DNA from: an uncultured Candidatus Saccharibacteria bacterium
GTDB lineage: Bacteria; Patescibacteriota; Minisyncoccia; Phycocordibacterales; UBA9973
DNA length: 50,081 nt
Assembly (NCBI GenBank): GCA_964577515.1
Contig: CAZNZN010000004.1
Location: 1-50,081 of the forward strand
Direction: 5' to 3'
Made by a program: the position numbers and the translations under genes. Below the pieces are notes generated by a model, which worked only from the letters and a program-made list of their open reading frames with translations, did no database searches and was not told the origin of the DNA. Positions within the stretch are counted from its first letter, which is position 1, and the number at the start of each line of letters is the position of its first letter. Shown in pieces: positions 17,950-49,892 of the stretch.

Positions 17950-19005
17950 CTATATAAACTCGGGATCTCTTTTTGACGAGATCGCAGAAGGTTTTTCGCT
18001 GTATCCAATACGTAGAATCATGGCAATAGTATCATTATTTTTTATAAACTCTTTATGAAGATATTCACCTCCCTCTTTAATATAAAGAGATTCTTCTTTT
18101 GTTAAGAGGCTATCAACATCATGACCTTCTATCATTCGTTGATAAATATATAGTACTCCAGCAAGCGGGTGTACAGCAACACCAAAGTGACTAGCAAGCA
18201 ACCAAAAGCGTTCTACTACTCTTCCTATGGCAATAAACGAAGCAGGATTTGCTGTCGTTACAGAAAAAATAACAGGAGTAGATGACTGATACATGCGTGC
18301 GTTTGATTCAGCAACTTTTTTTGAAAAACCAATCTTTGAAAGTATTTTTGTGACAGGCCAATATCTCAATATCCGAAAAAAAGCTTGCACGGGGAGAGGG
18401 AGCTCCATTGTTTTAAGATATAATCCTCGCATTTTTTTTCGCTCTTCCTTTTCAGACCACACAATACTATCGAAAAAAAACTTATGGATAAACTTGTTCT
18501 GGAGAGCGATACGCTCCATTTGTGTTGTTATATTAAAAAGCTTTTCTTTACTTTCTTCAGTCTCAACAAAAAGAATTTGTCCTTCTGGGTTCAATATTTT
18601 CTTTAAAGCATTCCGTGTTTCAGAAGAAAGTAGTTCTTTTTTATACTCTTTTCTGTTTGTACAGCGAGAAGGCAGCGCTTCATAAAGGACTTTGTAGTCA
18701 ATATCGCTATCTTGCCCCCCTTCTGAAAAATTTATTATTGCGGTGCAGTTTTCCTCAGCACTCGGTAATACAGAAATATCTGCTTTGTATCCATAATGCG
18801 AAGCTACGATGGTGATATTTTCAATAAGAGCGCCATGTGCGAGAAGTGTCCCCCTTTCGCGAAAATCAAGAAAATCATTATTCCCTTCATTTCTTTTATA
18901 GATACAAAGTTTCGAACCCTTTACTGAAAAAACCCATGGCTGACAGTTATCCCCGGAAGGAGCGTTCACACTTTCTGATACTATTTTTTTAATAATACTT
19001 TCCAT
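17950..19005 (-). CDS. Double-length nitroreductase-superfamily protein (Acg / SagB-McbC-like fold suspected)
   Basis: N-terminal NAPSGDNCQPWVF (nitroreductase-type motif) and RCTNRKEY. At 351 aa it is about two nitroreductase halves. It lies 3 nt from both neighbours. Confidence 0.65.
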   Translation of the reverse strand: MESIIKKIVSESVNAPSGDNCQPWVFSVKGSKLCIYKRNEGNNDFLDFRERGTLLAHGALIENITIVASHYGYKADISVLPSAEENCTAIINFSEGGQDSDIDYKVLYEALPSRCTNRKEYKKELLSSETRNALKKILNPEGQILFVETEESKEKLFNITTQMERIALQNKFIHKFFFDSIVWSEKEERKKMRGLYLKTMELPLPVQAFFRILRYWPVTKILSKIGFSKKVAESNARMYQSSTPVIFSVTTANPASFIAIGRVVERFWLLASHFGVAVHPLAGVLYIYQRMIEGHDVDSLLTKEESLYIKEGGEYLHKEFIKNNDTIAMILRIGYSEKPSAISSKRDPEFI

Positions 19006-19008
19006 ATA

Positions 19009-20442
19009 CTAATTCTTTTTTACCCAACTCTGTTTATTTTTTTTCAATCTAAAAATTTCATTTCCATATGACAAAAGTTCAACTTTTGGATATGCTCTAT
19101 CTCCAATAGCGTTGTAGAGCTTACGGTATTCTGTATTAAGACTAATAAGACTTTGAAAAAGTGCTTTTGTTATAGCTTCCTTAAGTGCTTCATTCTCTGT
19201 TTGTAATTCTTCTAATTCAAGCATAACAACAAGTGTCTGCTCTGTCTGACTGTCATCTGAATCAACTCTAGCTAAAAATTTACCGGTCAATTTCCCTAAG
19301 AAATCATCTCTCTCAACAGCTGCTTTTATATTTTCAGGATATATATTAAGTGCGTAAAAAGTAACAGCAACATCTGACCTCCCAAAAAGACCGACAAACG
19401 GTAGCTGCCATTTAGCAAGATGTGGGGATAGCATCTCATACACACCTGCTTCTTTAGCAGCTTTAACAACATCACTATTCGTAAAAACAACACCTTTATC
19501 TTTTATATTGTAACGAATAAGCGGAATACCTGTATTTGCTGTAAAAGCAAGATGCCCCTCTACCGCTTCGAAATAGATAGTTTCTGGATCAAACTGAACC
19601 AAACTGGGTATAAAACCCTCTTCTCCAAATAACACCTTTCGAAAAGGCTCATTGTTTTCTGCTATTTTTCGTATTGAAATACTCAAAGGTGTTTCGTGGC
19701 CTAATGCCCCCGCATCTGCAGTTCCATACACACTAACAGTATCAAATAAACTATTAGAAACACCTGCGAGTGAGCATATCAAATCTCTCCAACGTTCAGA
19801 AAAACTCTCACCTGCAAATAAAAACTTTAAACTAAACTTATTGAGTGGAATATCTCTTTTTTTTGTTTCATTAATGACATCCATAAGAAACGGTGGGTAC
19901 CCCGCCAAAATAACCACGTCAAACTGAGGAGCGAAATCTCTCAGGACTGAAAGAATGTCTTCTTTTTCGATTCCTGGAGTTATAACAGAAAGATGCATAT
20001 CTTTTTGTCGAGAAACATAACGACAAGAGGCAGCGGTAAAAGTCCCAGCAATCCAGTTACCCATAGAAAAACAAACAACGACTAGTGTAGACTTTCCTTC
20101 GATTGAAAATATATCTCTAAATATTCTTTCATGGAGTACCCCCCCAGCTCTTTCCTGATCATCACCTCGAGGCCAATAAAAAGGCTTTCCTGACGAACCA
20201 GAACTTGCAGACACCATTGGTGGTATCTCTCTATTTTTTACAAGTTCTACAAAAGGAAAACGACGCAAGTAATTATCTTTGTCCATTAAGGGTACGGATA
20301 AGGTAAAATCACTTAACGATCGAATATTTTTAAGGTTAACATTGTTTTCTTTTAAAAATTTTTTATAGGCTTCGATTTCTTGAGAAGCTGACAAAAAAAC
20401 TGAAAGTGGAAATTGTCTTTTTTTTCTCAAAAAATGAATCAT
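19009..20442 (-). CDS. PaaK / coenzyme F390 synthetase-like adenylate-forming enzyme (ANL superfamily)
   Basis: SSGSSGKPFYWPR (phosphate-binding loop, compare TSGTTGKP), YGTADAG and RYNIKDKG motifs. 477 aa. Confidence 0.7.
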   Translation of the reverse strand: MIHFLRKKRQFPLSVFLSASQEIEAYKKFLKENNVNLKNIRSLSDFTLSVPLMDKDNYLRRFPFVELVKNREIPPMVSASSGSSGKPFYWPRGDDQERAGGVLHERIFRDIFSIEGKSTLVVVCFSMGNWIAGTFTAASCRYVSRQKDMHLSVITPGIEKEDILSVLRDFAPQFDVVILAGYPPFLMDVINETKKRDIPLNKFSLKFLFAGESFSERWRDLICSLAGVSNSLFDTVSVYGTADAGALGHETPLSISIRKIAENNEPFRKVLFGEEGFIPSLVQFDPETIYFEAVEGHLAFTANTGIPLIRYNIKDKGVVFTNSDVVKAAKEAGVYEMLSPHLAKWQLPFVGLFGRSDVAVTFYALNIYPENIKAAVERDDFLGKLTGKFLARVDSDDSQTEQTLVVMLELEELQTENEALKEAITKALFQSLISLNTEYRKLYNAIGDRAYPKVELLSYGNEIFRLKKNKQSWVKKN

Positions 20443-20453
20443 TTGTTTTAAGG

Positions 20454-21578
20454 TTACCGCTCGTTAAACTGAGCAATAAATTTTTTAGTTTTTTCTTCTC
20501 TTCCAAGAATAGATTGTTCCGACATATATTGTGGAACTATTTTTTCTTCAAGACTAACGACATAACGTCCTGAAGGAATATCTTGTTTTGTGAGAATTCT
20601 TCTAAGCGCATAAGAAACAGCCGCGCCTGCAATATTAGCAGTAGTTCCTAATTGTGGAACAGAAGGAATTTTTTTACCTATAAGAGAAAGAGATTCTTGC
20701 ATTCTTTCAGTTAAATAGCTAGGTCCGACAATTTTTGTTGCGAGTTGAAGCCACATTTTATAATCAAGATTTTCAAAATCTTTTGGTTCAACATCCCCAA
20801 GTAATCCATGGAAAATTGGCTGTGTAGAATCAAGATCATATCGTTCAACATCAAGTAGTACTCCATCTCCATTGTCAGTAGCCATTAACACTGGGATTTT
20901 TGCTTCACGGCAAATAAAACGTGCTGCGATCTTTAAATCAAGGCTATCCATCTCATCAACAAACACATCTACTCTTGGGTTTAAAAGAAAATCAGCAAGT
21001 GTTTCTTTTGTGATCCCCTTATCCCATAATGAAAGCTCTGTGTAAGGATCAAGCTCCCAAACCTCATGAGCAGCTATATGTGTTTTATTTTGACCAATAT
21101 GAATGAGCTTTGCTCTCATACGGTTAAGATTGGTAATCTCTGCTGTATCAAAATCTGCAATCTTAATATTTTTTGATCCTCCACTAACGACAACAGATGA
21201 GAGTATTGCTGAACCAACAGAGAGCCCCGCGATTGCAATATGCGAATTTCGATAGGTTGTTTGCTCTTCTTCTGTAAGAATAAATCTATTACGAGCAGTA
21301 CGGAGCATAAAGTATATATCTTCAGATACAGTTTTTATTAATACGGCACTCCAAGGAAAATATATAAAAACAGGTTCTAGTGTATTGTTTTTTATAAAAT
21401 CAGACAGCATATCAGGGACACCTGGTTGTGCTTTTTTATATTGAGGATTTTTTACAAAAAAAAGCTCTTCCAGTGCTCCAGAAAAAGCATCGACTTCGGA
21501 AGCAATTATGTTATTTTTTTTAAAAGAATCTAGCTCTTTTAATGAAAGAAAGATAGGTTTTTTTAGATTTTGCTCCAT
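20454..21578 (-). CDS. E1/ThiF-like protein with a ~115-aa N-terminal extension and a degenerate nucleotide loop
   Basis: IAIAGLSVGSAILSS replaces GxGxxG. IADFDTAEITNLNRM matches the DxD..SNLNRQ region, and VDEMDSLDLKIAARFICREAKIPVLMATDNG is present. Confidence 0.7.
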   Translation of the reverse strand: MEQNLKKPIFLSLKELDSFKKNNIIASEVDAFSGALEELFFVKNPQYKKAQPGVPDMLSDFIKNNTLEPVFIYFPWSAVLIKTVSEDIYFMLRTARNRFILTEEEQTTYRNSHIAIAGLSVGSAILSSVVVSGGSKNIKIADFDTAEITNLNRMRAKLIHIGQNKTHIAAHEVWELDPYTELSLWDKGITKETLADFLLNPRVDVFVDEMDSLDLKIAARFICREAKIPVLMATDNGDGVLLDVERYDLDSTQPIFHGLLGDVEPKDFENLDYKMWLQLATKIVGPSYLTERMQESLSLIGKKIPSVPQLGTTANIAGAAVSYALRRILTKQDIPSGRYVVSLEEKIVPQYMSEQSILGREEKTKKFIAQFNER

Positions 21579-26958: not shown

Positions 26959-27441
26959 ATGGTGGCTATGATACAGAGTATACCACCGTGGCTTCTTGCC
27001 GTCTTGGCGACCCTTTGTATCAGCACTGTAGTGCTGATTGTTGTTTCTGTACAGCTCTACAAACGGCTCCGTGTGTTTATGCGAGGAAAAAACGGGGCTT
27101 CGCTTGAAGCAACACTTGCCTGGCTTACACAAAAGCATGCCCAAGTAGACGACACTCTCCAGGCGCACAAGAAAGCGCTTGAGATGATTGATGCACGTGT
27201 CAAAAAGAGCATTCGAGGATACTCACTTGTACGCTACGATGCCTATGAAGATATTGGTGGGAATCAAAGTTTTGCCTCAGGGCTTATTGATGAACACGGC
27301 GATGGTTATGTGCTTTCAGTAATCAGCAACAGAAACCATATCGGTGTCTATGCAAAACCAGTACAACGAGGGACAGCACTCGCCACACTTACTCCTGAAG
27401 AAACAACTGCGCTTGAGACAGCAAAGAAAAGTATTTACTAA
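26959..27441 (+). CDS. DUF4446-like membrane-anchored protein
   Basis: An N-terminal TM segment, a coiled segment, then GYSLVRYDAYEDIGGNQSFASGLIDEHGDGYVLSVI. The start may be the fourth codon (26968), given a TATAAT directly upstream. Confidence 0.7.
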   Translation: MVAMIQSIPPWLLAVLATLCISTVVLIVVSVQLYKRLRVFMRGKNGASLEATLAWLTQKHAQVDDTLQAHKKALEMIDARVKKSIRGYSLVRYDAYEDIGGNQSFASGLIDEHGDGYVLSVISNRNHIGVYAKPVQRGTALATLTPEETTALETAKKSIY

Positions 27442-30288: not shown

Positions 30289-30738
30289 ATGAAAAAAGTT
30301 ATTCTGTTCTTTTCAGTAGTATTGCTCAGCGTAACCGCATTCGCACAACCCTGCAACAGCTGCCCGGTCCCCGTGGCTGGTCAGCAACAGCAGATACAAC
30401 AACCGACAACATTTGTCGGCACAGCGATTTCAAACAGTCCCTTAGTACCCGGAAAAGCGTACAAAGGAACTGCGTACATCAAAATGTACACCCCTGACTT
30501 TACACAGACAGTCTCTGTCTCTGTGTGGATCATGGGGAGGGAGTATGAGACTGTGGCAACAATCCCCGATTGGGCTACGCCGAACTGTTGGCAATGTTTG
30601 TTTAAAGAAAATCGCATGGCGAAAATGAACCCTGCAACCGGAAGAGTTGAGTACGTCACTCCTATACCGGTAAGGATCCAACAATTGATTGTTGGATCCG
30701 AAGGTGACATCACTTCAGTGCAACTCAACTTGCGCTGA
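30289..30738 (+). CDS. Secreted protein of unknown function (signal peptide, Gln-rich N-terminus, 4 Cys)
   Basis: MKKVILFFSVVLLSVTAFAQ signal peptide followed by PCNSCPVPVAGQQQQIQQ. It has a strong promoter and a terminator. Confidence 0.65.
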   Translation: MKKVILFFSVVLLSVTAFAQPCNSCPVPVAGQQQQIQQPTTFVGTAISNSPLVPGKAYKGTAYIKMYTPDFTQTVSVSVWIMGREYETVATIPDWATPNCWQCLFKENRMAKMNPATGRVEYVTPIPVRIQQLIVGSEGDITSVQLNLR

Positions 30739-30751
30739 GACCCTGAGCATC

Positions 30752-32196: not shown

Positions 32197-32226
32197 TTGA
32201 CAAAATAGGTATTATTGTGTTATAAT
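32197..32226 (+). promoter_or_regulatory. Promoter TTGACA-18-TGtTATAAT of the SPFH-like operon
   Basis: TTGACA at 32197-32202 and TATAAT at 32221-32226 with an upstream TG. It overlaps the ORF-track N-terminal extension, which was therefore dropped. Confidence 0.65.
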
Positions 32227-32274
32227 ATAATAGAAATTGTAATCAATAATTCTTTCACAATAAAAACTACAGTC

Positions 32275-33366
32275 ATGACAAAAAACCCTCTTTTCAAGGC
32301 TCCCCTGTTGAGCTTTAAAAACACAGAGCCTGGAAAGTGGCTCGTGTTCGAACGGTTCGGAACCCCAACAAAAGCTATTCTCTATGACGGAGATCGCGGA
32401 AAAACAGTCATTGTTGAAGCGAAAGGTGGTGAATTCAAACACACCGAAATTGACGGCGTTGTCACTCTAAAAGGAATGACCTGGCCAAATGCTCAACACT
32501 TACTTAAGTTCCGATGGACGGAGACAATTCCGGATGAAGAGACTGCAAAAACAGCCGTGTATCCTAATGGACACCCAAAAGCTGGTCAGAAAAAATACAC
32601 CAGCTACAAAAAATTCCTTCATTCAAGTATTGTTATCGGAACAAGAGAAGAAGACAATGTGCCGTATTTACGACAGAAAGAAATCCACCCGGTTGCTATA
32701 GAATTTATATGTGACGGCGGTGGTTCTTATGTCATTGTTGTCCAGGTTACTGTAGAAATACACAACCCCATGGCAGCAATCCAGCTTGAAAACTTCCTTG
32801 ACTCTGCTCTTGGCAGAGTTACTGAAGCAATCCTCGGCTGGGGAAAATCAAAAACGTTCAAAGAAGCCCGCGCTATTAATGTCGATGATCATAAACAAAT
32901 AATGATCAAAGACAGGCGCGGTGACTCCAGATACTATCTGGATGTTATCAATGAAGACTTACAAGAGAAACTCGGGATAAGTATCCCCGATGTCACTCAG
33001 ATTGGGCACTTCATCGGTGATGCTTCAAAAAGCGTCTTTGAGAGTGAGAACAAAACACTTGAAGAAGGCAACAAAGTAAAACAGGCAGAGTTCAAAAAGC
33101 AGGCTCGACTGGAAGAGAATATTGCTCAGCAAGCCGAAAACACAACAGACCTTGCTTATAAAAGCGGACTGCTTGATAAGTACGGTGAGGTACAAGGAAA
33201 ACTCCTCGACAAACAGGCTCAGATTGCAAAAAACTATGCTGGGAACAACGGACTAACGTATCTCAGTATCGGAGATTCAGGCGCAACTGGAAAAGCGGCA
33301 ACGCTACCTGAAATACTGGCAGCGCTTGAAGCAACAAAACCAAAAGGAGGTAAAAATGTTTCTTAG
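32275..33366 (+). CDS. SPFH/band-7-like protein without an N-terminal TM anchor, with a ~90-aa insertion
   Basis: KWLVFERFGTPTKAIL resembles the stomatin/QmcA V-ERFG-R start. The core is VIVVQVTVEIHNPMAAIQLENFLDSALGRVTEAILG, followed by a coiled-coil tail KQAEFKKQARLEENIAQQAE. Confidence 0.55.
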   Translation: MTKNPLFKAPLLSFKNTEPGKWLVFERFGTPTKAILYDGDRGKTVIVEAKGGEFKHTEIDGVVTLKGMTWPNAQHLLKFRWTETIPDEETAKTAVYPNGHPKAGQKKYTSYKKFLHSSIVIGTREEDNVPYLRQKEIHPVAIEFICDGGGSYVIVVQVTVEIHNPMAAIQLENFLDSALGRVTEAILGWGKSKTFKEARAINVDDHKQIMIKDRRGDSRYYLDVINEDLQEKLGISIPDVTQIGHFIGDASKSVFESENKTLEEGNKVKQAEFKKQARLEENIAQQAENTTDLAYKSGLLDKYGEVQGKLLDKQAQIAKNYAGNNGLTYLSIGDSGATGKAATLPEILAALEATKPKGGKNVS

Positions 33367-34063
33367 CATTTATTTCCCAAACCAGTGGTGGGATATAGGC
33401 ATCCTAGTTTTGCTTCTTTTTACACTCCCATATCTTATAAAAAAGATACTATGGTCTGGTAATAAAAGAGTAGATATTGATGCAATAATCCTATTCATTG
33501 GACTCTTGCTTTTAGTAGGAGCATGGCTTGCTGTAGCAAAAGGTTGGCCGTGGTTCTGGAACACTACCGGATGGTGGGGTGTGGGAGTCCTTGCAGGGAT
33601 AGCGCTTCTGATTATTTTCAGAAAGACTATCACTGGAGTCTCTGTACCAAAAACTTTCTGGAAGTGGTTCTGGAGTCTTCTGGCTATCGCTGGTCTTACA
33701 GTTGGAGGATACTTTGTCTATCACAAACTCAAGGATGCTCGCTTCGGCAAGGATACTGAGAAGTACGAGACAGTCAAAGAGGACATCTGGTTCAAAGCCA
33801 AAAAAGGTATCCCTTTCAAAAAGGAAATCCTCAACTTCGAAGGTGAACGGTGGCCGATCGTCAAAGGTCGCGACACTGTGACCCTCACCTTTGATCCGCC
33901 CCGCGGGTCGAAATGGGTCTACAAGATATGGAATCGCCCTGATGGCAGTGTCGGATACAAGGAAATTAAAAAAATCCCCGACATTGTCCTTGCTGGTACA
34001 TATCTGTACACCACTGACAAAGATTGCGAAATCATGATCAGCACTAAGAAGCCAAAGTTGTAA
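33356..34063 (+). CDS. Trp-rich 4-TM membrane protein with a C-terminal soluble beta-rich domain
   Basis: GGAGG lies 5 nt upstream of the ATG, and the gene overlaps the SPFH-like stop by 11 nt. There are four hydrophobic segments followed by a ~110-aa soluble tail. Confidence 0.6.
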   Translation: MFLSIYFPNQWWDIGILVLLLFTLPYLIKKILWSGNKRVDIDAIILFIGLLLLVGAWLAVAKGWPWFWNTTGWWGVGVLAGIALLIIFRKTITGVSVPKTFWKWFWSLLAIAGLTVGGYFVYHKLKDARFGKDTEKYETVKEDIWFKAKKGIPFKKEILNFEGERWPIVKGRDTVTLTFDPPRGSKWVYKIWNRPDGSVGYKEIKKIPDIVLAGTYLYTTDKDCEIMISTKKPKL

Positions 34064-34090
34064 GTTGTGAAATGTTCTTTTGCAGATGCA

Positions 34091-34121
34091 AAACGCCGCC
34101 CCAAACGGAGCGGCGTTTTTT
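34091..34121. terminator. Bidirectional intrinsic terminator
   Basis: AAACGCCGC, a 10-nt loop, GCGGCGTTT plus a T-run, between convergent genes. Confidence 0.8.
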
Positions 34122-34127
34122 CTTTTT

Positions 34128-34499
34128 CTATTCACACGGATAGATAGATCCGACGTTCTCACCATTTATCTTTATATCTTTGATACATGGTGGGGTGAAT
34201 TCTTGTGCTTTGTTGTCAATCGTATGTGACTTACTCAAGCCAAAGGTATTGATGAGGATGTTGATGATACCGTAGACACCAACCATGATGACTAGTCCAA
34301 CTACTCCCCATATCATGTGTTGTTGTCCTTTTTTTCGAGCTTCAGCGTTGTTTGCATTTCGAATAAATTCGACAACTCCCCACAAGAAGACAACGAACGC
34401 AATAATGAATGCAAACTGAATCGCAGGGTTGATGATAGTCCTGTTGATACTAAAGACTAGTTCATTAAATGTTTTTGCATATGCGACAAAGGCATTCAT
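34128..34499 (-). CDS. VirB2/TrbC-pilin-like two-TM protein P1 (no signal peptide, C-terminal Cys pair)
   Basis: TM1 AIQFAFIIAFVVFLWGVVEFI, a basic loop, TM2 MIWGVVGLVIMVGVYGIINILINTFG, and tail ..PPCIKDIKINGENVGSIYPCE. Confidence 0.6.
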   Translation of the reverse strand: MNAFVAYAKTFNELVFSINRTIINPAIQFAFIIAFVVFLWGVVEFIRNANNAEARKKGQQHMIWGVVGLVIMVGVYGIINILINTFGLSKSHTIDNKAQEFTPPCIKDIKINGENVGSIYPCE

Positions 34500-34517
34500 G
34501 GCAGCTGCTGTGAGCCT

Positions 34518-34895
34518 TTATCGGCAACCAATGTTTTGGTAGTAGCGTTGTCCTGGAGGACATGGAACTGGAGCACTTCCTCCTTGACCTACACCAAAGG
34601 TATTTGTAAGAATGTTTACGATTCCCCAAATACCGACAATCACTGCAAGACCGATGATACCGCGGATCATTGCGTTTTTCTTGTTTACTACTTCCTTTGC
34701 ATCTTTTTCACGGATGTATTGGATCACTGTCCAGATGAAGTAGAGTGTAGCAATCACCATCAAGAAGGTCACTGCACGCTGTGTCCAGTCAATGATACGA
34801 GTAATCCAGTTTTCTGCGTAACTAAAGTTTTGAGCAAAAGCGAGAGGAGCGAGTAACACTACAAGCGCGAGTGCTGGGATAACAATTTTCTTCAT
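34518..34895 (-). CDS. VirB2/TrbC-pilin-like two-TM protein P2 (signal peptide, C-terminal Cys pair)
   Basis: Signal peptide MKKIVIPALALVVLLAPLAFAQ, two TM segments separated by REKDAKEVVNKKNA, IWGIVNILTNTFGVG, and tail PCPPGQRYYQNIGCR. TGgTATACT lies upstream. Confidence 0.65.
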   Translation of the reverse strand: MKKIVIPALALVVLLAPLAFAQNFSYAENWITRIIDWTQRAVTFLMVIATLYFIWTVIQYIREKDAKEVVNKKNAMIRGIIGLAVIVGIWGIVNILTNTFGVGQGGSAPVPCPPGQRYYQNIGCR

Positions 34896-34957
34896 ACGTT
34901 TATCGAAATGTCTAACTAATAAATAATAATTGTAGACAGTAGTAGTATACCACAGTG

Positions 34958-35692
34958 CTATTTACGACAAGGGTTTTTTGGGTCGGTAGTAAGACAGTCT
35001 GTTTGCAGCTGCGGCACAGTGTCACCGAGCCCAAAGGTTGTGGTCACAATGTTCACAATCCCCCATACGCCTACCATCACCGTAAGACCAAGAATCCCCC
35101 AATAGATGAACTTCTTGCTCTCCTCTCGCTTCTTCACATCAGCGCCATCACGGATATACCCCACCATTCCCCAGAGGAATACAAGAAACGCTATTGAAAA
35201 GAGGAGTGGAATAATCGCCGCTCCAATAATACATTTTGCCCAAATAAGAATATCGAGGAGTGAGTTGAACCGGATCTGTGAACACTGTGTGATACCTGGA
35301 GCACTCGTATTCGGCGTTCCTGCAATAGTCCCTGTATCGTAGCCGTTGATAGTTGTCCCAGGAAGTGATACCCCTCCAGCTTGTGTTCCGTAGTACAGAT
35401 CACATTGTTGTGCATACCGTCCTGCATTTACCACACAGCAATCATATTCGTTTGACGCAGTTACTGTTGCACAGTTATTCCCCGTTTGTTGTTGCTGTTG
35501 TTGGTTGGTTTGCTGAGCGATCTCAAAGTCAGAACACTGTGCCGCGTAGTCAGCAGCATTTGGTCCACCACAACAAAGCCGATAGGTTCCTGCTGTTACA
35601 GGGTTACATTGTGCATCAGTTTGCGCTGATACGTTGTGAGGAATAGCAAAAAAGATACTAAAGGCGATGACTACTAGTGCAAAGTATTTCAT
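34958..35692 (-). CDS. VirB2/TrbC-pilin-like protein P3 with a duplicated Cys-rich ectodomain and poly-Gln linker
   Basis: The start is set to MKYFALVVIAFSIFFAIPHNVSAQ. Two C-x10-CC-x9/10-QC modules flank QQTNQQQQQQ. The C-terminal two-TM module is VWGIVNIVTTTFGLG, with tail DCLTTDPKNPCRK. Confidence 0.65.
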   Translation of the reverse strand: MKYFALVVIAFSIFFAIPHNVSAQTDAQCNPVTAGTYRLCCGGPNAADYAAQCSDFEIAQQTNQQQQQQTGNNCATVTASNEYDCCVVNAGRYAQQCDLYYGTQAGGVSLPGTTINGYDTGTIAGTPNTSAPGITQCSQIRFNSLLDILIWAKCIIGAAIIPLLFSIAFLVFLWGMVGYIRDGADVKKREESKKFIYWGILGLTVMVGVWGIVNIVTTTFGLGDTVPQLQTDCLTTDPKNPCRK

Positions 35693-35696
35693 ATAG

Positions 35697-36257
35697 TTAA
35701 CTCGTAATACTATTAACGGTTCCAATAATGGCATTGGTGATCACCCAAGCACCGAGGATGAGCAACGTCCCAACTATGGTGTACCAAAAGGTCTTTTTCG
35801 CCACCTTAAGTTTGTCGGGATTTCCTCGAGCAAAGACAAACTGCAACCCTGCCCAAATAAAGAAGAGAACAAGAAGAGGCAGAATGATGCGAAGCGCTGC
35901 TGTCATAAAGAGCTTAATAGCCTCTTGTATAGTGTCTACCTTAAGCGGGTTATTGATAGTGATAGGAATGGGTTTTCCTTTTGTTCCTGACCCCCCAGCA
36001 CCTGCCCCACTTCCTGTACCAGTGTTTGAAGGGCAAGGAGCTTTTTCTTCTCCTGTCTCACATACTGCTTTGGCATTGTTCTTACACTCAGGATCGAGCA
36101 CATCGGTTTTACCGTCGCCGTCATTGTCTTTTCCGTCGTTACATTGTGTTGGATTTGGCTGTGGAGGATTTTGAGGATTTGTTCCTTGTGCAGCTACTCC
36201 AGAAACAAGAAGTAGTTGTAGTGTTAAAACGAGAGTAAATGCAATGATGCGTTTCAT
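35697..36257 (-). CDS. VirB2/TrbC-pilin-like protein P4 with a Cys-flanked Asp-rich (calcium-binding-like) motif
   Basis: The start is set to MKRIIAFTLVLTL. Contains CNDGKDNDGDGKTDVLDPEC, a Gly/Ser/Thr linker, and the two-TM module LPLLVLFFIWAGLQFVFARGNPDKLKVAKKTFWYTIVGTLLILGAWVI. Confidence 0.7.
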   Translation of the reverse strand: MKRIIAFTLVLTLQLLLVSGVAAQGTNPQNPPQPNPTQCNDGKDNDGDGKTDVLDPECKNNAKAVCETGEEKAPCPSNTGTGSGAGAGGSGTKGKPIPITINNPLKVDTIQEAIKLFMTAALRIILPLLVLFFIWAGLQFVFARGNPDKLKVAKKTFWYTIVGTLLILGAWVITNAIIGTVNSITS

Positions 36258-36271
36258 ATGACGAGAGTATA

Positions 36272-37207
36272 TCATTTTTCTAGAAATTGCAGAGCGCTAT
36301 CGGTGTCTTTAACTAAGACAGTGAGGAGTACTTTGACGATAAGCCACGCAGAGAGCACGATAAGTATCCCTATGAAGATGTGCTTCAAAAGGCTCTTGAG
36401 GTTGATGATCTTTTTTGGGTCTCCTTGTGCAGTAAGATATTTGAACCCAGCGTACATAAACATGATGATAATGATAGGAACAAACAGTACCGTGATGAGG
36501 AATACTATGAGGTTATTTATCGTCTTTAGTACATCAGAAAAAGTACAGTAGTTATTGCATGCGATGAGCCCGCTCTTTTCATCCCCTTTTGCTACTTCTG
36601 ATGCTCCTTTTCCAAGGTAACAAGAAGGGTCTGGTTCATATGTCCCCCCTACGCCATCATAATCAATGCGCCCATCACCGTCATTGTCTTTTTGATCCCC
36701 ACATGTCCCATCTCCAGTGGTTGGATCTCCTTCGGGAGCGACTGACTGCGTACCACTTTGCTGAGCATTCGTACTTGTCTGTGTAGTGTTTGTAGTTGTT
36801 TGTGTAGTGGTTGTAGTTGTTTGTGTGTTATTGGTGGTTGTAGTTTGAGAACTTTGTTGAATAGAAAAACTCTGTACTCCTTTCCAAGAAGACGCGTCGC
36901 TGTATGCCCCAGCTTTTGCATAATATGTCTTTCCTTTTTTAAGGCCTGTTACGGTAAAAACCACAGGTACATTTTGACTGAAAAATACTTGTTTACTTTT
37001 CAAGAAACCACCATCTCCTGGGAATACCCCGTCAGAGACTTCAATATTACCTACGTAGCCATAACAGGTAGCACACGTAGCAGTAACCACCGCTGTTGTT
37101 CCGGTTGTCTTTACAGAGACAACAATAGGGTTGGGATCGGCAAATACACGGGTTGCGATAGTAAAAAGACTAACGAATAACAGACTGTAGATTGCGAGAC
37201 GTTTCAT
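36272..37207 (-). CDS. VirB2/TrbC-pilin-like protein P5 with a beta-sandwich-like domain, Thr-rich linker and Asp-rich motif
   Basis: The start is set to MKRLAIYSLLFVSLFTIATRVFA. Contains TTTTNNTQTTTTTTQTTTNTTQTST, CGDQKDNDGDGRIDYDG..PDPSC, and the two-TM module FVPIIIIMFMYAGFKYLTAQGDPKKIINLKSLLKHIFIGILIVLSAWLI. Confidence 0.7.
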   Translation of the reverse strand: MKRLAIYSLLFVSLFTIATRVFADPNPIVVSVKTTGTTAVVTATCATCYGYVGNIEVSDGVFPGDGGFLKSKQVFFSQNVPVVFTVTGLKKGKTYYAKAGAYSDASSWKGVQSFSIQQSSQTTTTNNTQTTTTTTQTTTNTTQTSTNAQQSGTQSVAPEGDPTTGDGTCGDQKDNDGDGRIDYDGVGGTYEPDPSCYLGKGASEVAKGDEKSGLIACNNYCTFSDVLKTINNLIVFLITVLFVPIIIIMFMYAGFKYLTAQGDPKKIINLKSLLKHIFIGILIVLSAWLIVKVLLTVLVKDTDSALQFLEK

Positions 37208-38474
37208 ATATTGCTTCTGCTGGTGTATAGCGACCACTAGTAACTCCTTGTATCATATCACGAAAGACATTTTCAGTTGCTGCTGGGTTGATGTCTGGCC
37301 AGCCAAACGCGTTTAATGCTGATTTGAAAAATACTTGCACATATGGGTTTTTTTGCGGTGTGACAAGAATATCTCGACGTGCTGGTGGGAGTGCTGTTTC
37401 TCCTGCGAGGTACTCAACAAACTCTTTTCCAGAGAGCTGCCCTGCAACAGTATACGCTGCATCAAACTGTGTCGTTGCTTTTACAATAGAAAGACTTGAG
37501 AAAGATCCGAAAGTGGTTGGACGTACTATTCCCACTGGCTGGAACACCTGCGTCACATCAAAGTTGAGATTTGGGTTTCTCTTTTGGAGAGTAAAGAGTT
37601 CGCTTGCACGCCCTATGTAGAATGCACTTTTTCCTGAAAGGAACATATCGAGACCGCTCGACAATGTCTTGTTCCAAGAATATGTATCACTTGTCGGATT
37701 TGAAAAGTTAACAAAAAATGCGAGCGCGCTTATCACTGGGTTTTCTTCTGATGCACCTGTGGTAGCAAGAGTACTTGTATATGACTGAGTCACCGTATCA
37801 AAAGTAGTAATAGGATTCCCCACCTGAAGAAAGAGTGTTGCGAGAATATCTTTGAAATGGTCAACGTTACTATATTCTCCAAAAGGAAGCAGCGTCTGCG
37901 TAATCGCACCTTTTGCATTATTTTTCACAAACTGTGGCATAAGAGACACGAGCGATGTCCATGTTGTTGGTGGGACAACATAGTTTTTTCCAGCAAGCAT
38001 ATCTTTGTTGTAGTACGCAACAACAGGATCAACAAGAAGTGGTAGGGCCATCACTCCATCTTGGGAGAGGAAAAGCGCGCTACCATCAACATAGGTGTCC
38101 CGGAAACTTCGCTCTGGATATGTAGTAAAAGGGATAGTGTACACTCTATTTTTTATAGAAAAAAAGTTCTCCGAATCAGTAATCAGAAGATCCGGCTGTT
38201 GCCCTTCAGCTAAAGCAGCAGTAAGTCTCCCTGCAAGAGCATCCCCACTCACCTCTTCATAATAAATACGCGTTGATTTGTTTTCAATATTGAGACTATC
38301 GATATATGGCTGTACCACCGTTGAAGGATACACACCCCACACTGATACCGTGGCAGCACTTGAAGAAGACTGAGAAGAAGACCCTACTTTGATAACGCCT
38401 GCGAATATCAAAATAGCACCGATAAATGCTGCGATAGAAACACCGATGAGTATTGTTTGAAATGGTAGTTTCAT
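37170..38474 (-). CDS. Membrane-anchored extracellular solute-binding protein (ABC family-1-like), no permease or ATPase nearby
   Basis: An N-terminal TM anchor and a Ser-rich linker (SSSQSSSSAA). Family-1 SBP-like segments PDLLITDSENF and VVAYYNKDML. 434 aa. Confidence 0.65.
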   Translation of the reverse strand: MKLPFQTILIGVSIAAFIGAILIFAGVIKVGSSSQSSSSAATVSVWGVYPSTVVQPYIDSLNIENKSTRIYYEEVSGDALAGRLTAALAEGQQPDLLITDSENFFSIKNRVYTIPFTTYPERSFRDTYVDGSALFLSQDGVMALPLLVDPVVAYYNKDMLAGKNYVVPPTTWTSLVSLMPQFVKNNAKGAITQTLLPFGEYSNVDHFKDILATLFLQVGNPITTFDTVTQSYTSTLATTGASEENPVISALAFFVNFSNPTSDTYSWNKTLSSGLDMFLSGKSAFYIGRASELFTLQKRNPNLNFDVTQVFQPVGIVRPTTFGSFSSLSIVKATTQFDAAYTVAGQLSGKEFVEYLAGETALPPARRDILVTPQKNPYVQVFFKSALNAFGWPDINPAATENVFRDMIQGVTSGRYTPAEAIYETSRNLQSVIR

Positions 38475-38492: not shown

Positions 38493-39017
38493 TTACTTCT
38501 TGAAAAGTATAGCATAGTGATGTTCACCTCCAGGAATTGTCTCAGAAAGTTTTGTACACCCAAATGATGTAAGTAACTGCTCTGCTGTTTGTTTCTTGAA
38601 GACTCGGTCAGGGTGCGGACCAAGACCACCAAAAGACTCTTCCCAATCCACAACAAGCAACCTCCCTCCGGGCTTAAGTACACGAAGGGCCTCCTTGATA
38701 CATCCGTGTTTGTCATCGAGTTGGAACAAAATATTTGAAAGAATAACAAAATCCACACTTTCACTATCAAGCTTTGATCCTCCAGGTACTTCTATGTCTC
38801 CCCATAACGGAAAAATATTTTTTATTCCTGCGTCTTTTACCTCACGAGTGATGCGTGCAACAAGGTCGCGATTTATTTCAATTGCAAAGACACTTCCCTG
38901 TGTTACAAACAACGATATCGCTCGAGCGACAAACCCACTTCCTGCACCAAAATCAGCTACTGTATCTGTAACTTGGAGGTTGCACGCAGCGATAGTCCGC
39001 GCAGGGTCCATAAACAT
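38493..39017 (-). CDS. Class I SAM-dependent methyltransferase
   Basis: Motif I VADFGAGSGFVARAI and post-II LKPGGRLLVVDW. 174 aa. Confidence 0.8.
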   Translation of the reverse strand: MFMDPARTIAACNLQVTDTVADFGAGSGFVARAISLFVTQGSVFAIEINRDLVARITREVKDAGIKNIFPLWGDIEVPGGSKLDSESVDFVILSNILFQLDDKHGCIKEALRVLKPGGRLLVVDWEESFGGLGPHPDRVFKKQTAEQLLTSFGCTKLSETIPGGEHHYAILFKK

Positions 39018-39064
39018 ATACTATAAGTATAGCAAGCAAGTGCAATAAAGTAGAGCGACAGCTC

Positions 39065-41536: not shown

Positions 41537-41761
41537 TTATTGTCCGTTTAGTATAGCACGATTTTTATCAAAAAATGATTGCGTCTGTTCTAAAATCGTT
41601 GCATAAAAAGCTGAAAAACCTTGCAATGTATCGTTTTTTTGTGCAGGCTTTCTCTCTCCTGTATACAAAAAGAGTAAAACACCCAACAAAATAACCCCCG
41701 CACCGATGGTGATCCCAAGTGCAATCTTTTTTCGAACATACGCTGTGTGGTGTTCGAGCAT
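41537..41761 (-). CDS. Small single-TM protein
   Basis: 74-aa ORF with one hydrophobic segment (IALGITIGAGVILLGVLLFLY). It is packed between the MBL-like gene and gyrA on the same strand. Confidence 0.5.
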   Translation of the reverse strand: MLEHHTAYVRKKIALGITIGAGVILLGVLLFLYTGERKPAQKNDTLQGFSAFYATILEQTQSFFDKNRAILNGQ

Positions 41762-47680: not shown

Positions 47681-48037
47681 TTATTTACTTCCTCGGAGAA
47701 TACTTTTTATCTTTCTTGCACCACGCTTCCAAAGCGCTTCTTTTTTTCCTTTTGCTGAAGTCAGTGCGCGTACTATTTCATCACGAACATCATCAATAGC
47801 TTCATAGAGATCTGATTTTTCTGAAGCCGCATAGTGCTGCTTACCAAGTACAGTGGTCACCGTCACTTCTGCACGAAACACGTCGCCATTTTTATGGTGA
47901 TCAGTAGTCTTCCCTATTTCAGCAACAATATTCATATCTCCACCACTATACTTCGAAAGTGCATTGAGACGCTTTTCAGTATAGTCCTTGAGTGCAGGGG
48001 TAAGTTCTATGTTTGATGCTTTGATTGAAATATTCAT
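47681..48037 (-). CDS. hpf: Ribosome hibernation promoting factor (HPF/RaiA family, short form)
   Basis: MNISIKASNIELTPALKDYTEKRL start and FRAEVTV. 118 aa. Confidence 0.85.
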   Translation of the reverse strand: MNISIKASNIELTPALKDYTEKRLNALSKYSGGDMNIVAEIGKTTDHHKNGDVFRAEVTVTTVLGKQHYAASEKSDLYEAIDDVRDEIVRALTSAKGKKEALWKRGARKIKSILRGSK

Positions 48038-48065
48038 ACTCCTTTAGTATACCATTTTGACCTCT

Positions 48066-49574: not shown

Positions 49575-49892
49575 ATGGGAAAGATTTTAGCAATTATCCT
49601 GGTGGTAGTAGTACTGTGGTTTGGGATTCCAAAGATAGCCCAAGCACAGTGGTTTGCCCCTACGCTCTATCCGAGCTACTGGTGGGGATCACCTGTCTAC
49701 AACTACCAACCACAGGCACGCCAGCAAGGCTACGGGTGGTTTAACCTCTCTTTCTGGAACGGACAACCCAGCGTACAAGCTGGCTACAGCCAGGGCTGGA
49801 ATACATGGAACCCTGGCACTGTATGGGGAGGAGGTGCACAAACGCTTCCGTACTATACCGGTGCAGCAAGTGCCTACGGTGGCTTTTGGTAA
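49575..49892 (+). CDS. Small secreted or anchored Trp/Tyr/Gly/Gln-rich low-complexity protein
   Basis: Signal or anchor MGKILAIILVVVVLWFGIPKIAQAQ followed by an aromatic-rich region (YPSYWWGSPVYNYQPQ, GYGWFNLSFWNGQP, GWNTWNPGTVWGGG). Confidence 0.55.
   Translation: MGKILAIILVVVVLWFGIPKIAQAQWFAPTLYPSYWWGSPVYNYQPQARQQGYGWFNLSFWNGQPSVQAGYSQGWNTWNPGTVWGGGAQTLPYYTGAASAYGGFW

What the first reader, a model, noticed from the sequence alone, without database searches (positions are those of the whole stretch)
34128..37207. Array of five tandem VirB2/TrbC-pilin-like genes with hypervariable ectodomains and no secretion machinery
All five products end in the same module: a hydrophobic helix, a short Lys/Arg/Asp-rich loop (for example ARGNPDKLKVAKK, TAQGDPKKIINLK, REKDAKEVVNKKNA) and a second hydrophobic helix. 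This is the hallmark of conjugative T4SS pilins (VirB2/TrbC) and, as I recall, of the Pfam T4SS_pilin family common in Gram-positive and CPR genomes. Four have cleavable signal peptides. The N-terminal ectodomains grow from about 0 to about 230 aa across the array and are unrelated to each other, being Cys-rich repeats, an Asp-rich metal-binding-like motif, a beta-sandwich-like domain, and poly-Q and poly-T linkers. The genes are packed (gaps of 4 to 62 nt), and P2 has its own TGgTATACT promoter. No VirB4, VirD4, VirB6 or relaxase gene, or any ATPase, lies within at least 12 kb on either side. A multi-paralog set of pilin-like anchors displaying different extracellular heads could be a modular surface-display or adhesion system of an epibiotic cell rather than a conjugation pilus.
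Basis: partly seen in the sequence, partly recalled or inferred. Interest (0 to 1): 0.75.

Follow-up and report, generated by a model that had tools for sequence, protein, structure and literature searches.

The report
Pilin-like gene array in ultrasmall bacterium
Five neighbouring genes in an ultrasmall (Patescibacteria/CPR) bacterium encode secretion-system pilin-like membrane proteins, a kind of array already described in 2023-2025, although this one belongs to a widely conserved cassette with a solute-binding protein that I did not find described.

Summary
Five minus-strand genes (34128-37207) each carry the same two-helix hairpin with a basic loop, and all five hit Pfam PF18895 (T4SS_pilin) best. 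The kind is already published: Quinonero-Coronel et al. 2025 report 441 arrays of 2-11 divergent VirB2-like pilin genes in Patescibacteria, and Wang et al. 2023 show a six-gene PF18895 array is essential in Southlakia epibionticum.

What I add:
- The organism is a Nomurabacteria-like Paceibacteria.
- The array is a vertically inherited cassette found in about 80 species: gyrA, methyltransferase, a membrane-anchored orphan solute-binding protein (SBP), then 3-9 pilin genes (usually five positional orthologues).
- A conserved TGnTATA(A/C)T promoter sits upstream of the SBP and another upstream of the fourth pilin gene.
- The heads are modular: FN3, acidic double-disulfide knot, Cys-rich repeats.
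- Between near-identical strains, one 180-bp block of the first pilin's FN3 head is replaced.

"No secretion machinery" is only a window-level statement. A relative with the same cassette is listed as VirB4-positive, and 19 of 20 Nomurabacteria assemblies in the table portion read are too.

Most likely these are pilin subunits of the patescibacterial type IV secretion system (T4SS). The headless pair probably forms the shaft and the head-bearing ones act as adhesins. A T4SS-independent display role is not excluded.

The parts
38506..38514 (-). Extended -10 promoter-like motif TGCTATACT, 31 nt upstream of the SBP start
   Evidence: TGNTATAMT occurs 11 times in the window against 2.9 expected, and all 11 sit in orientation just upstream of gene starts. 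The motif is present upstream of the SBP in 32 of 48 canonical loci, against a 1.9% background.
37170..38474 (-). Orphan membrane-anchored solute-binding protein (434 aa). It has an N-terminal TM helix and a Ser-rich linker, and its stop overlaps the P1 start by 38 nt.
   Evidence: Pfam SBP_bac_8 51.2 bits and SBP_bac_1 47.3 bits. Best solved relatives are sugar ABC SBPs 4qrz and 4g68. Wherever the contig extends, it is followed directly by 3-9 pilin genes in the 80 GTDB loci and in L094, which was found through the pilin. No ABC permease or ATPase gene is in the window.
36272..37207 (-). P1 (311 aa): signal peptide, FN3-like head, Thr-rich linker, acidic double-disulfide knot, CxxxC, pilin hairpin, conserved tail
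   Evidence: PF18895 42 bits. AF2 model: beta-sandwich at residues 28-115 (pLDDT 73-92), disordered 121-170, helices 223-260 and 270-300. Foldseek matches FN3 domains and monobodies with TM 0.6-0.69. Only the C-terminal 47% is conserved in 36 homologues of 171-430 aa.
36863..37126 (-). FN3-like head domain of P1 (aa 28-115)
36875..37055 (-). Strain-variable block inside the FN3 head. It is about 36% diverged between the window and L002, while the other 15 kb of overlap differ at 3 sites.
   Evidence: Substitutions fall in all codon positions (24/19/40) and are of all types, so this is an imported allele and not retroelement A-mutagenesis.
36713..36856 (-). Thr/Gln/Asn-rich linker of P1. It is length-polymorphic, giving 311-, 305- and 304-aa alleles.
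36620..36703 (-). Acidic double-disulfide (Ca-binding-like) motif of P1: C-x-D-x-KDNDGDG...EPDPSC
   Evidence: C169, D174, D182, G185, E191, D193, P194, S195 and C196 are invariant in 36 homologues. The homologous motif in P2 hits NF033662 (33.2 bits, cut-off 41) and the teneurin C-rich domain 7plp (E 4.9e-4).
36266..36274 (-). Promoter-like TGATATACT, 8 nt before the P2 ATG (possible leaderless transcript)
   Evidence: The motif is present at the P1|P2 junction in 15 of 48 loci.
35697..36257 (-). P2 (186 aa): signal peptide, acidic double-disulfide knot, Gly/Ser linker, pilin hairpin
   Evidence: PF18895 40.1 bits and PF04956 22.4 bits, the latter sub-threshold. 26% identical to P1 over 156 aa.
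34958..35692 (-). P3 (244 aa): signal peptide, two Cys-rich repeats separated by poly-Q, Gly/Thr linker, pilin hairpin, C-terminal Cys-pair tail
   Evidence: PF18895 20.3 bits, below the gathering score. Its module is 48% identical to those of P4 and P5. It has 12 Cys.
34944..34952 (-). Conserved internal promoter-like motif TGGTATACT in the 62-nt P3-P4 spacer
   Evidence: The motif is present in the P3|P4 spacer of 42 of 48 canonical loci, against 0 of 48 at P2|P3 and P4|P5.
34518..34895 (-). P4 (125 aa): signal peptide, almost headless pilin hairpin, C-terminal Cys-pair tail
   Evidence: PF18895 26.6 bits, equal to the gathering score
34128..34499 (-). P5 (123 aa): no signal peptide, headless pilin hairpin, C-terminal beta-hairpin tail with Cys pair. 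It is the most conserved member.
   Evidence: PF18895 26.3 bits. 74% identical to the L007 orthologue, against 57% for the SBP. AF2 pLDDT 82, with helices 11-47 and 52-85 at pLDDT 97.
34090..34125 (.). G+C-rich hairpin with T-runs on both strands, between the array and the convergent genes (bidirectional terminator-like)
32215..34063 (+). Convergent neighbours: a 245-aa membrane protein and a 383-aa protein of a family that recurs downstream of the array. They are context; a functional link is not shown.
   Evidence: jackhmmer finds the 383-aa family 0.5-1.5 kb downstream of the array in 36 loci. The gene at the same position in L094 is SPFH/Band_7, 29.8 bits.

Best explanation
The five genes are a chromosomal, vertically inherited set of VirB2-like (PF18895) pilin paralogues. 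This is the kind already described for the Patescibacteria type IV secretion system (T4SS), here in a Nomurabacteria-like member of class Paceibacteria.

Proposed mechanism:
1. Each protein inserts into the membrane as an N-out/C-out helical hairpin with a basic cytoplasmic loop.
2. Its N-terminal head and C-terminal disulfide loop are therefore extracytoplasmic.
3. The array is expressed as two or three units: [SBP-P1(-P2-P3)] and, from a strongly conserved internal promoter, [P4-P5].
4. The headless, best-conserved P4/P5 pair would be the bulk (shaft) subunits.
5. P1-P3 would be less abundant subunits. They expose an FN3 domain on a Thr-rich stalk, acidic Ca-binding-like knots and Cys-rich repeats, and mediate host contact.
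6. The P1 head is under strain-level diversification.
7. Assembly would use the VirB4/VirB6/TrsD machinery encoded elsewhere in the genome.

Shown: homology, topology features, conservation, promoter layout and the allelic mosaic. Inferred: polymerisation, division of labour among the five, dependence on VirB4, and the role of the SBP.
For: - All five genes hit PF18895 and, below threshold, the monoderm conjugation family NF045849. The modules are mutually homologous.
- Two close P1 homologues (P0034, P0035) carry PF04956 TrbC as their precomputed Pfam domain.
- The same Pfam family forms the essential six-gene array inside the S. epibionticum T4SS cluster.
- 441 such arrays are reported in Patescibacteria, and the pilin gene is near virB4 in only 1135 of 1948 assemblies.
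- A genome with this cassette (L076, GCA_002787695.1) is VirB4-positive, and 19 of 20 Nomurabacteria assemblies in the table portion read are too.
- The helices are 34-37 residues long, longer than a bilayer requires.
- Loops are net positive in 66-97% of modules. Cys counts are even (6, 4, 12, 2, 2) and all Cys lie in predicted outside segments.
- The five positional orthologues are kept in order in 46 of 80 species-level loci, and P5 is the most conserved.
- The promoter motif occurs at the P3|P4 junction in 42 of 48 loci and upstream of the SBP in 32 of 48, but at about 0 of 48 at SBP|P1, P2|P3 and P4|P5.
- T4SS-pilin-domain genes are among the most highly expressed unknown genes of Paceibacteria that parasitise methanogens.
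Against: - No T4SS gene lies within 50 kb here or within +-10 kb in about 80 relatives.
- Whether this particular genome has VirB4 could not be checked.
- The link to canonical VirB2 is weak: PF04956 is below threshold; hhalign to an Agrobacterium-type VirB2 profile gives 0.4-27% probability; Foldseek and a sequence profile find no solved pilin.
- Heads of up to about 500 aa may be hard to fit into a VirB2-type helical filament.
- No pilus has been seen for any patescibacterial T4SS in the literature I read.
- The tight coupling to an SBP has no precedent in T4SS loci.
Confidence: 0.55

Rival explanations
1. T4SS-independent surface display. The hairpins are simply membrane anchors. Together with the co-transcribed anchored SBP, they hold FN3, Ca-knot and Cys-rich heads on the cell surface as an adhesion or recognition complex, and no filament is built.
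For: - The cassette is never next to T4SS genes in about 80 species.
- The SBP stop overlaps the P1 start, and no promoter motif lies between them (2 of 48 loci).
- Heads reach several hundred residues.
- No structural or sequence match to solved pilins was found.
Against: - It does not explain why two headless members (P4, P5) are the best conserved and have their own conserved promoter.
- It does not explain helices of 34-37 residues.
- The same family is essential inside a T4SS cluster in S. epibionticum.
- Relatives do have VirB4.
Confidence: 0.25
2. SBP-coupled uptake device. The hairpin proteins oligomerise into a membrane pore or conduit that works with the orphan sugar-type SBP to take up host-derived nutrients. 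This would be an importer that is neither an ABC transporter nor a pilus.
For: - The SBP has no ABC permease or ATPase partner in the window.
- SBP and pilin genes are linked in about 80 species and share a transcription unit.
- Patescibacteria depend on hosts for building blocks (PMC10633639).
Against: - There is no precedent and no energy-coupling component in the cassette.
- Adhesion-type heads (FN3, Ca-knot) and strain-level head replacement fit recognition better than transport.
- Synteny of the whole gyrA region is conserved too (gyrA in 70 of 80 loci), so linkage alone is weak evidence.
Confidence: 0.08
3. Variable surface antigens or phage-receptor decoys. The paralogues and the replaceable P1 head mainly serve to evade phages or host defences, as proposed for the VirB2 paralogue arrays of Bartonella and Anaplasma. 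This reading is compatible with either structural model above.
For: - There is a localised allelic mosaic in the P1 head (about 92 of 96 differences over 15 kb) and a linker length polymorphism.
- Heads are swapped among orthologues.
Against: - P2-P5 are identical or nearly identical among the same strains.
- The five genes are old positional orthologues, not recently amplified copies.
- There is no silent cassette or retroelement in the window.
Confidence: 0.1

Closest known systems
Essential six-gene pilin array SEML1_0014-0019 of Southlakia epibionticum ML1 (Wang et al. 2023, PMC10633639), and the 441 'VirB2 arrays' of Patescibacteria (Quinonero-Coronel et al. 2025, PMC12102498)
   Same: - Same Pfam family (PF18895).
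- Tandem, sequence-divergent paralogues in a CPR chromosome. The paper reports 25% mean identity; here identities run from about 15% to 48%.
- No relaxase nearby.
- All five genes meet the survey's detection criteria.
   Different: - The ML1 array lies inside the T4SS gene cluster and its members are small. [quoted passage not shown]
- This array is in Paceibacteria, unlinked to T4SS genes, next to gyrA and co-transcribed with an orphan SBP.
- It consists of five conserved positional orthologues, three of which carry sizeable head domains.
- I found no mention of an SBP or of gyrA in the survey text.
Canonical conjugative pilins VirB2 / TrbC / TraA (PF04956)
   Same: - Small leader-bearing proteins with two long hydrophobic helices, a short basic loop, and both termini outside.
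- Weak colinear profile similarity: PF04956 at 22.4 bits for P2, and hhalign E 6.7e-4 for P1.
   Different: - The match is below Pfam's threshold.
- There is no match to solved pilin structures.
- The organism is a monoderm.
- The proteins carry N-terminal domains of up to hundreds of residues and C-terminal disulfide loops.
- P5 has no leader peptide.
- There are no adjacent VirB genes.
Mbov_0395-family pilin-like conjugal transfer protein of Mycoplasma ICEs (NCBIfam NF045849)
   Same: All five modules align with almost the whole 80-position profile. This fits the reported MPF-FATA (monoderm) ancestry of the patescibacterial T4SS (PMC12102498).
   Different: Scores are 22-33 bits against a cut-off of 40, and the genes are not in an ICE.
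VirB2 paralogue arrays of Bartonella and Anaplasma phagocytophilum
   Same: Tandem divergent pilin paralogues thought to vary surface interactions (cited in PMC12102498).
   Different: Those arrays are within virB operons of diderm intracellular pathogens and have no fused head domains or SBP.
Major and minor pilin sets of type IV pili
   Same: This is an analogy only: several paralogous subunits, a small abundant one, and larger ones that carry adhesive domains.
   Different: The fold and machinery are unrelated, and there is no class III signal peptide here.

Membership tests
Pfam PF18895 T4SS_pilin | Profile match at or above the gathering score (26.6 bits) | tested here: met
   P1 scores 42.0, P2 40.1 and P4 26.6 bits. 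P5 at 26.3 and P3 at 20.3 fall short. Both are tied to the others by 38-48% module identity and 98% hhalign probability.
Patescibacteria 'VirB2 array' as defined in PMC12102498 | Two or more pilin genes (PF18895 or PF04956 hit with E<0.001 and >50% profile coverage), in tandem or separated by one gene, in a Patescibacteria genome | tested here: met
   All five pass: E-values run from 1e-10 to 5.9e-4 and coverage from 59/71 to 71/71 positions. Relatives are named Nomurabacteria or Paceibacterota.
Patescibacteria 'VirB2 array' as defined in PMC12102498 | The genome also encodes the patescibacterial VirB4 | not testable with these tools
   The source contig is about 51.6 kb, almost the same as the window. 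Indirect evidence: L076 = GCA_002787695.1 has the cassette and is VirB4 = Yes, and 19 of 20 Nomurabacteria assemblies read are Yes.
Canonical VirB2/TrbC pilin (PF04956) | Profile match at or above the gathering score (27.9 bits) | tested here: not met
   P2 scores 22.4 and P1 14.9 bits; the others are not listed. Two P1 homologues (P0034, P0035) do carry PF04956 in the precomputed annotation.
Canonical VirB2/TrbC pilin (PF04956) | Demonstrable homology to a bona fide VirB2 by profile-profile or structure comparison | tested here: inconclusive
   hhalign against a 120-sequence Agrobacterium-type VirB2 profile gives 0.4-27% probability. The alignment is colinear and scores above reversed-sequence controls (0.2-1.4%). 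Foldseek of the P5 model against the PDB has a best E of 1, with generic hairpins only. A profile search against PDB sequences found nothing.
Canonical VirB2/TrbC pilin (PF04956) | Leader peptide, two hydrophobic helices and a short basic loop, with termini outside | tested here: met
   Hydropathy and AF2 models. Loops are net positive and Cys counts are even in outside segments. P5 lacks a leader.
Canonical VirB2/TrbC pilin (PF04956) | Encoded with VirB3/VirB4/VirB6 genes | tested here: not met
   None in the window. None within +-10 kb in 80 related loci.
Canonical VirB2/TrbC pilin (PF04956) | Polymerises into an extracellular pilus | not testable with these tools
   This needs microscopy or proteomics.
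Diversity-generating retroelement target (considered for the variable P1 head) | Adenine-specific substitutions relative to a template repeat near a reverse transcriptase | tested here: not met
   Substitutions are of all types and in all codon positions. There is no second copy of the region in the window and no reverse transcriptase among the window ORFs.

The most novel reading that the evidence does not exclude
The SBP-pilin cassette is a distinct, so far undescribed surface organelle module of Paceibacteria, conserved in at least about 80 species. It has its own promoter architecture and often a convergent SPFH-like gene. In this reading an anchored sugar-type binding protein works together with head-bearing VirB2-like subunits. 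These subunits would act either as the host-recognition end of the patescibacterial T4SS or independently of it. The replaceable FN3 head of P1 would set host or strain specificity.
Probability: 0.25. Interest if true: 0.7.

Novelty: new member of a known kind. Interest (0 to 1): 0.4.

Why it matters
How CPR/Patescibacteria recognise and exploit their hosts is largely unknown. The T4SS with its pilin array is one of the few systems shown to be essential for the epibiotic lifestyle, and that has been shown only in one Saccharibacterium.

This locus shows that the largest CPR class keeps a stable five-member pilin set with a clear internal division: two headless members with their own promoter, and three head-bearing members tied to a binding protein. 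The outermost domain is the only part that differs between co-occurring strains.

That yields concrete candidates for host-specificity determinants and a testable major/minor-subunit model. It does not, however, reveal a new kind of system.

Tried and rejected
- **Retroelement (DGR) hypermutation of the P1 head.** Rejected. Substitutions are of all types and codon positions, there is no template copy, and there is no reverse transcriptase.
- **Mobile-element origin.** The array's G+C matches the window. tblastn of P2 and P5 against 72,556 plasmids found nothing. The variable head found nothing in phages.
- **Structural proof of pilin identity.** Foldseek of the P5 model gave only generic helical hairpins. 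A P5-family profile found no PDB sequence. hhalign to an Agrobacterium-type VirB2 profile was above reversed controls but not significant.
- **T4SS genes near related arrays.** I looked at 94 large ORFs without window homologues in 80 loci. Only one had a Walker A motif and it had no Pfam hit. The ten I scanned were lipases, SPFH proteins or unknown.
- **Linking more cassette-bearing genomes to the published VirB4 table.** Only one of twelve names tried was in the stored part of the table.
- **Strain-level search for further P1 alleles in JGI metagenomes.** It gave one extra linker-length allele only.
- **A conserved palindrome after the P4 promoter.** RNAalifold gave no consensus structure.
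- **Not done.** SignalP and DeepTMHMM were not available.

Full report
**Naming.** I number the genes P1-P5 in the direction of transcription (minus strand).

**1. What is there**

The coordinates given enclose exactly five tandem ORFs on the minus strand:
- P1, 36272-37207, 311 aa from the ATG of MKRLAIY
- P2, 35697-36257, 186 aa
- P3, 34958-35692, 244 aa
- P4, 34518-34895, 125 aa
- P5, 34128-34499, 123 aa

The gaps between them are 14, 4, 62 and 18 nt. A G+C-rich hairpin flanked by T-runs follows P5 at about 34096-34122.

Every product has Pfam PF18895 (T4SS_pilin) as its best hit. The scores are 42.0, 40.1, 20.3, 26.6 and 26.3 bits against a gathering score of 26.6. PF04956 (TrbC/VirB2) is seen only below its threshold: P2 scores 22.4 and P1 14.9 bits against 27.9.

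NCBIfam gives an independent sub-threshold match for all five. The family is the Mycoplasma-ICE 'Mbov_0395 pilin-like conjugal transfer protein' (22-33 bits, cut-off 40).

The modules are homologous to each other beyond doubt. P3, P4 and P5 are 38-48% identical and P1/P2 are 26% identical over 156 aa. Profile-profile probability is 98% (E about 1e-13). Five adjacent hits of this kind are not a chance event.

**2.

- P3, P4 and P5 do not end in the hairpin. Each has a 20-38-residue tail with two cysteines, and P1 has a conserved ...DSALQFLEK tail.
- The heads are not all unrelated. P1 and P2 share an acidic motif bracketed by cysteines (C-x-D-x-KDNDGDG...DP-x-C). It hits NCBIfam 'acidic double-disulfide repeat' (33 bits, cut-off 41). 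It also hits the Ca-binding C-rich domain of teneurin-4, 7plp (E 4.9e-4).
- ClpB, an AAA+ ATPase, lies 8.5 kb from the array. 'No ATPase within 12 kb' is therefore literally wrong, although no T4SS gene is present anywhere in the 50 kb.

**3. Topology and folds**

- P1-P4 begin with Sec-type signal sequences ending VFA, VAA, VSA and AFA. P5 has none.
- The inter-helix loops are net positive, in 66-97% of 367 modules depending on the orthologue group.
- All cysteines lie in predicted outside segments and their counts are even: 6, 4, 12, 2 and 2.
- This gives an N-out/C-out hairpin with a cytoplasmic loop, as for VirB2-type pilins in the membrane.

The AlphaFold2 model of P5 has a mean pLDDT of 82. 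It shows two helices of 37 and 34 residues (pLDDT 97) and a small C-terminal beta-hairpin.

The AlphaFold2 model of P1 shows a beta-sandwich at residues 28-115 (pLDDT 73-92). A disordered Thr-rich linker and the hairpin follow. Foldseek matches the sandwich to FN3 domains and monobodies (TM 0.6-0.69, E about 5e-4).

The hairpin itself has no significant structural neighbour in the PDB (best E = 1). A P5-family profile finds no PDB sequence.

I fetched a real virB2 gene and built a profile from 120 of its homologues. hhalign gave colinear but non-significant alignments against it. Probability was 4.6% for all modules together and 27% (E 6.7e-4) for P1, against 0.2-1.4% for reversed controls. 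Relatedness to canonical VirB2 is therefore remote and unproven. Membership of PF18895 is solid.

**4. Organism and conservation**

- P2 is found identically on 20 metagenome contigs. The longest (51.6 kb) is essentially the window itself.
- More distant P1 homologues sit in the same context: gyrA, a SAM methyltransferase, a 432-440-aa SBP_bac_1 protein, then five pilin genes.
- A scan of one genome per GTDB species with an SBP alignment returned 80 loci. They are named Candidatus Nomurabacteria, Paceibacterota, Campbellbacteria, Wolfebacteria, Zambryskibacteria and Kaiserbacteria.
- Wherever the contig continues past the SBP, the gene is followed on the same strand by pilin-like ORFs. There are five in 46 loci and up to nine in the most distant ones.
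- A locus reached through the pilin rather than the SBP (L094) has the same layout with three pilins.

In the closer relatives the five are positional orthologues kept in the same order. Their identity to the window proteins is similar to that of the SBP. Against L007 the values are SBP 57%, P1 56%, P2 46%, P3 54%, P4 60% and P5 74%.

The array is thus old and stable, not a recent amplification.

Caution is needed, because the whole gyrA region is syntenic (gyrA is present in 70 of 80 loci). Linkage by itself is therefore weak evidence of function.

**5. Transcription layout**

The motif TGnTATA(A/C)T occurs 11 times in the window against 2.9 expected (0 of 100 shuffles reach 11). All 11 lie in orientation just upstream of gene starts, so it is this organism's extended -10 element.

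Three copies belong to the cassette:
- 38506-38514, upstream of the SBP
- 36266-36274, 8 nt before the P2 ATG

Frequency of the motif across 48 loci with the canonical gene order (background 1.9% per 90 nt):

| Position | Loci with motif |
|---|---|
| Upstream of SBP | 32 of 48 |
| SBP/P1 junction | 2 of 48 |
| P1/P2 junction | 15 of 48 |
| P2/P3 junction | 0 of 48 |
| P3/P4 junction | 42 of 48 |
| P4/P5 junction | 0 of 48 |

The SBP stop overlaps the P1 start by 38 nt. The conserved units are therefore [SBP-P1(-P2-P3)] and [P4-P5].

**6. Variable heads**

Among 36 P1 homologues only the C-terminal 47% is conserved (acidic knot, CxxxC and hairpin). Total lengths run from 171 to 430 aa, with zero, one or two beta-sandwich domains.

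Length ranges over the 80 loci:

| Group | Length (aa) |
|---|---|
| P1 | 124-572 |
| P2 | 123-477 |
| P3 | 80-602 |
| P4 | about 107-160, one outlier of 252 |
| P5 | about 78-135, one outlier of 493 |

In L009 it is P2, not P1, that carries a beta-rich domain followed by a Thr/Asn-rich linker. I judge that domain FN3-like from its sequence only.

At strain level, L002 differs from the window at 96 positions in 15.2 kb. About 92 of them lie in P1. A block at 36875-37055 is about 36% diverged, and there is a 21-nt indel in the Thr linker. The changes are of all types and fall in all codon positions (24/19/40). This is an imported allele, not retroelement mutagenesis, and no second copy exists in the window. 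A third linker-length allele occurs in L092.

'Hypervariable ectodomain' is therefore right for the P1 head. It is not right for the proteins as a whole.

**7. Comparison with what is known**

- Wang et al. [quoted passage not shown] Their tables show that SEML1_0014-0019 are PF18895 proteins.
- Quinonero-Coronel et al. 2025 (PMC12102498) surveyed 3,035 genomes with PF18895 and PF04956. They report VirB2-like pilins in 1,948 VirB4-positive assemblies, near virB4 in only 1,135. They also report 441 arrays of 2-11 pilin genes with 25% mean identity.
- A 2025 review calls these systems unique among monoderms for their potential to build pili (PMC12857230).
- Kuroda et al. 2024 list T4SS-pilin-domain proteins among the most highly expressed unknown genes of Paceibacteria that parasitise methanogens (PMC10936435).

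The present array meets the survey's criteria, so it is a further member of a published kind.

I did not find the following described: the SBP coupling (the words solute, SBP and gyrA are absent from the survey's main text), the five-orthologue structure, the promoter layout, the head domains, and the strain-level head replacement.

**8. 'No machinery'**

This cannot be decided for this genome, because the contig ends with the window. The indirect evidence is:
- The Zambryskibacteria genome GCA_002787695.1 carries the cassette (L076) with no VirB4 within 10 kb, yet it is listed as VirB4-positive.
- 19 of 20 Nomurabacteria assemblies in the part of Table S1 that I read are VirB4-positive.
- The survey places virB4 near dnaA in Paceibacteria.

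**9. Verdict**

- Best explanation (0.55): these are pilin subunits of the patescibacterial T4SS, encoded away from the machinery. P4/P5 would be the bulk subunits and P1-P3 the head-bearing adhesive subunits. The SBP is a co-expressed partner of unknown role.
- Rivals: T4SS-independent display with the SBP (0.25), an SBP-coupled conduit (0.08), and variable antigen or decoy (0.10, compatible with the others).
- Novelty: new member of a known kind.
- Interest: 0.4.

Noticed in passing
window 36875-37055 (P1 FN3 head) and 36790-36810 (Thr linker): Between the window and a near-identical strain (L002), about 92 of 96 differences over 15.2 kb fall in P1. They comprise a 180-bp block about 36% diverged and a 21-nt linker indel. 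The pattern fits recombination of a divergent allele, not DGR mutagenesis. L092 has a third linker length.
   Followed up: yes
window 37170-38474, and L012-L091 and L094: An orphan, membrane-anchored SBP_bac_1 protein precedes the pilin genes in every related locus examined, and its stop overlaps the P1 start. No ABC permease or ATPase gene is in the window.
   Followed up: partly
window 32215-33366 and 33326-34063: Two convergent genes lie downstream of the array. The 383-aa family recurs 0.5-1.5 kb past the array in 36 loci. In the distant locus L094 the gene at that position is an SPFH/Band_7 protein. A functional link to the array is possible but untested.
   Followed up: partly
whole window; 11 sites including 41550-41558, 39026-39034, 48046-48054 and 26977-26985: TGnTATA(A/C)T behaves as the genome's extended -10 promoter element: 11 sites against 2.9 expected, all upstream of gene starts. 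Several sit only 8 nt from the ATG (the methyltransferase, P2, and the 118-aa gene at 47681-48037), which suggests leaderless transcripts.
   Followed up: partly
P3-P4 spacer: window 34896-34957 and the same spacer in L009-L056: Directly after the conserved -10 motif, many relatives have a palindrome ACCTG-N(8-20)-CAGGT. The window has GTCTA...TAGAC at the same place. It could be a 5' hairpin or an operator. RNAalifold gave no consensus structure.
   Followed up: partly
window 30289-30738: A small secreted protein gene (149 aa, signal peptide, Cys-containing) is strain-variable. L001 has 100 nt where the window has 280 nt (30355-30634), plus clustered SNPs at 30696-30751.
   Followed up: no
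window 17950-21578: G+C drops to 0.36-0.37, against 0.42-0.45 elsewhere. The drop spans three genes: a ThiF-family E1-like protein, a 477-aa protein with no Pfam hit, and a protein with a weak nitroreductase match. This may be an acquired island or a small modification or biosynthesis cluster.
   Followed up: no
window 49575-49892: A 105-aa secreted protein rich in Gly, Trp, Tyr and Gln, with no family match.
   Followed up: no
L028-L091 record titles: Many third-party-annotated MAGs that carry this Paceibacteria cassette are titled 'uncultured Candidatus Saccharibacteria bacterium'. This looks like a generic or wrong label, given their synteny with Nomurabacteria and Paceibacterota genomes.
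   Followed up: no
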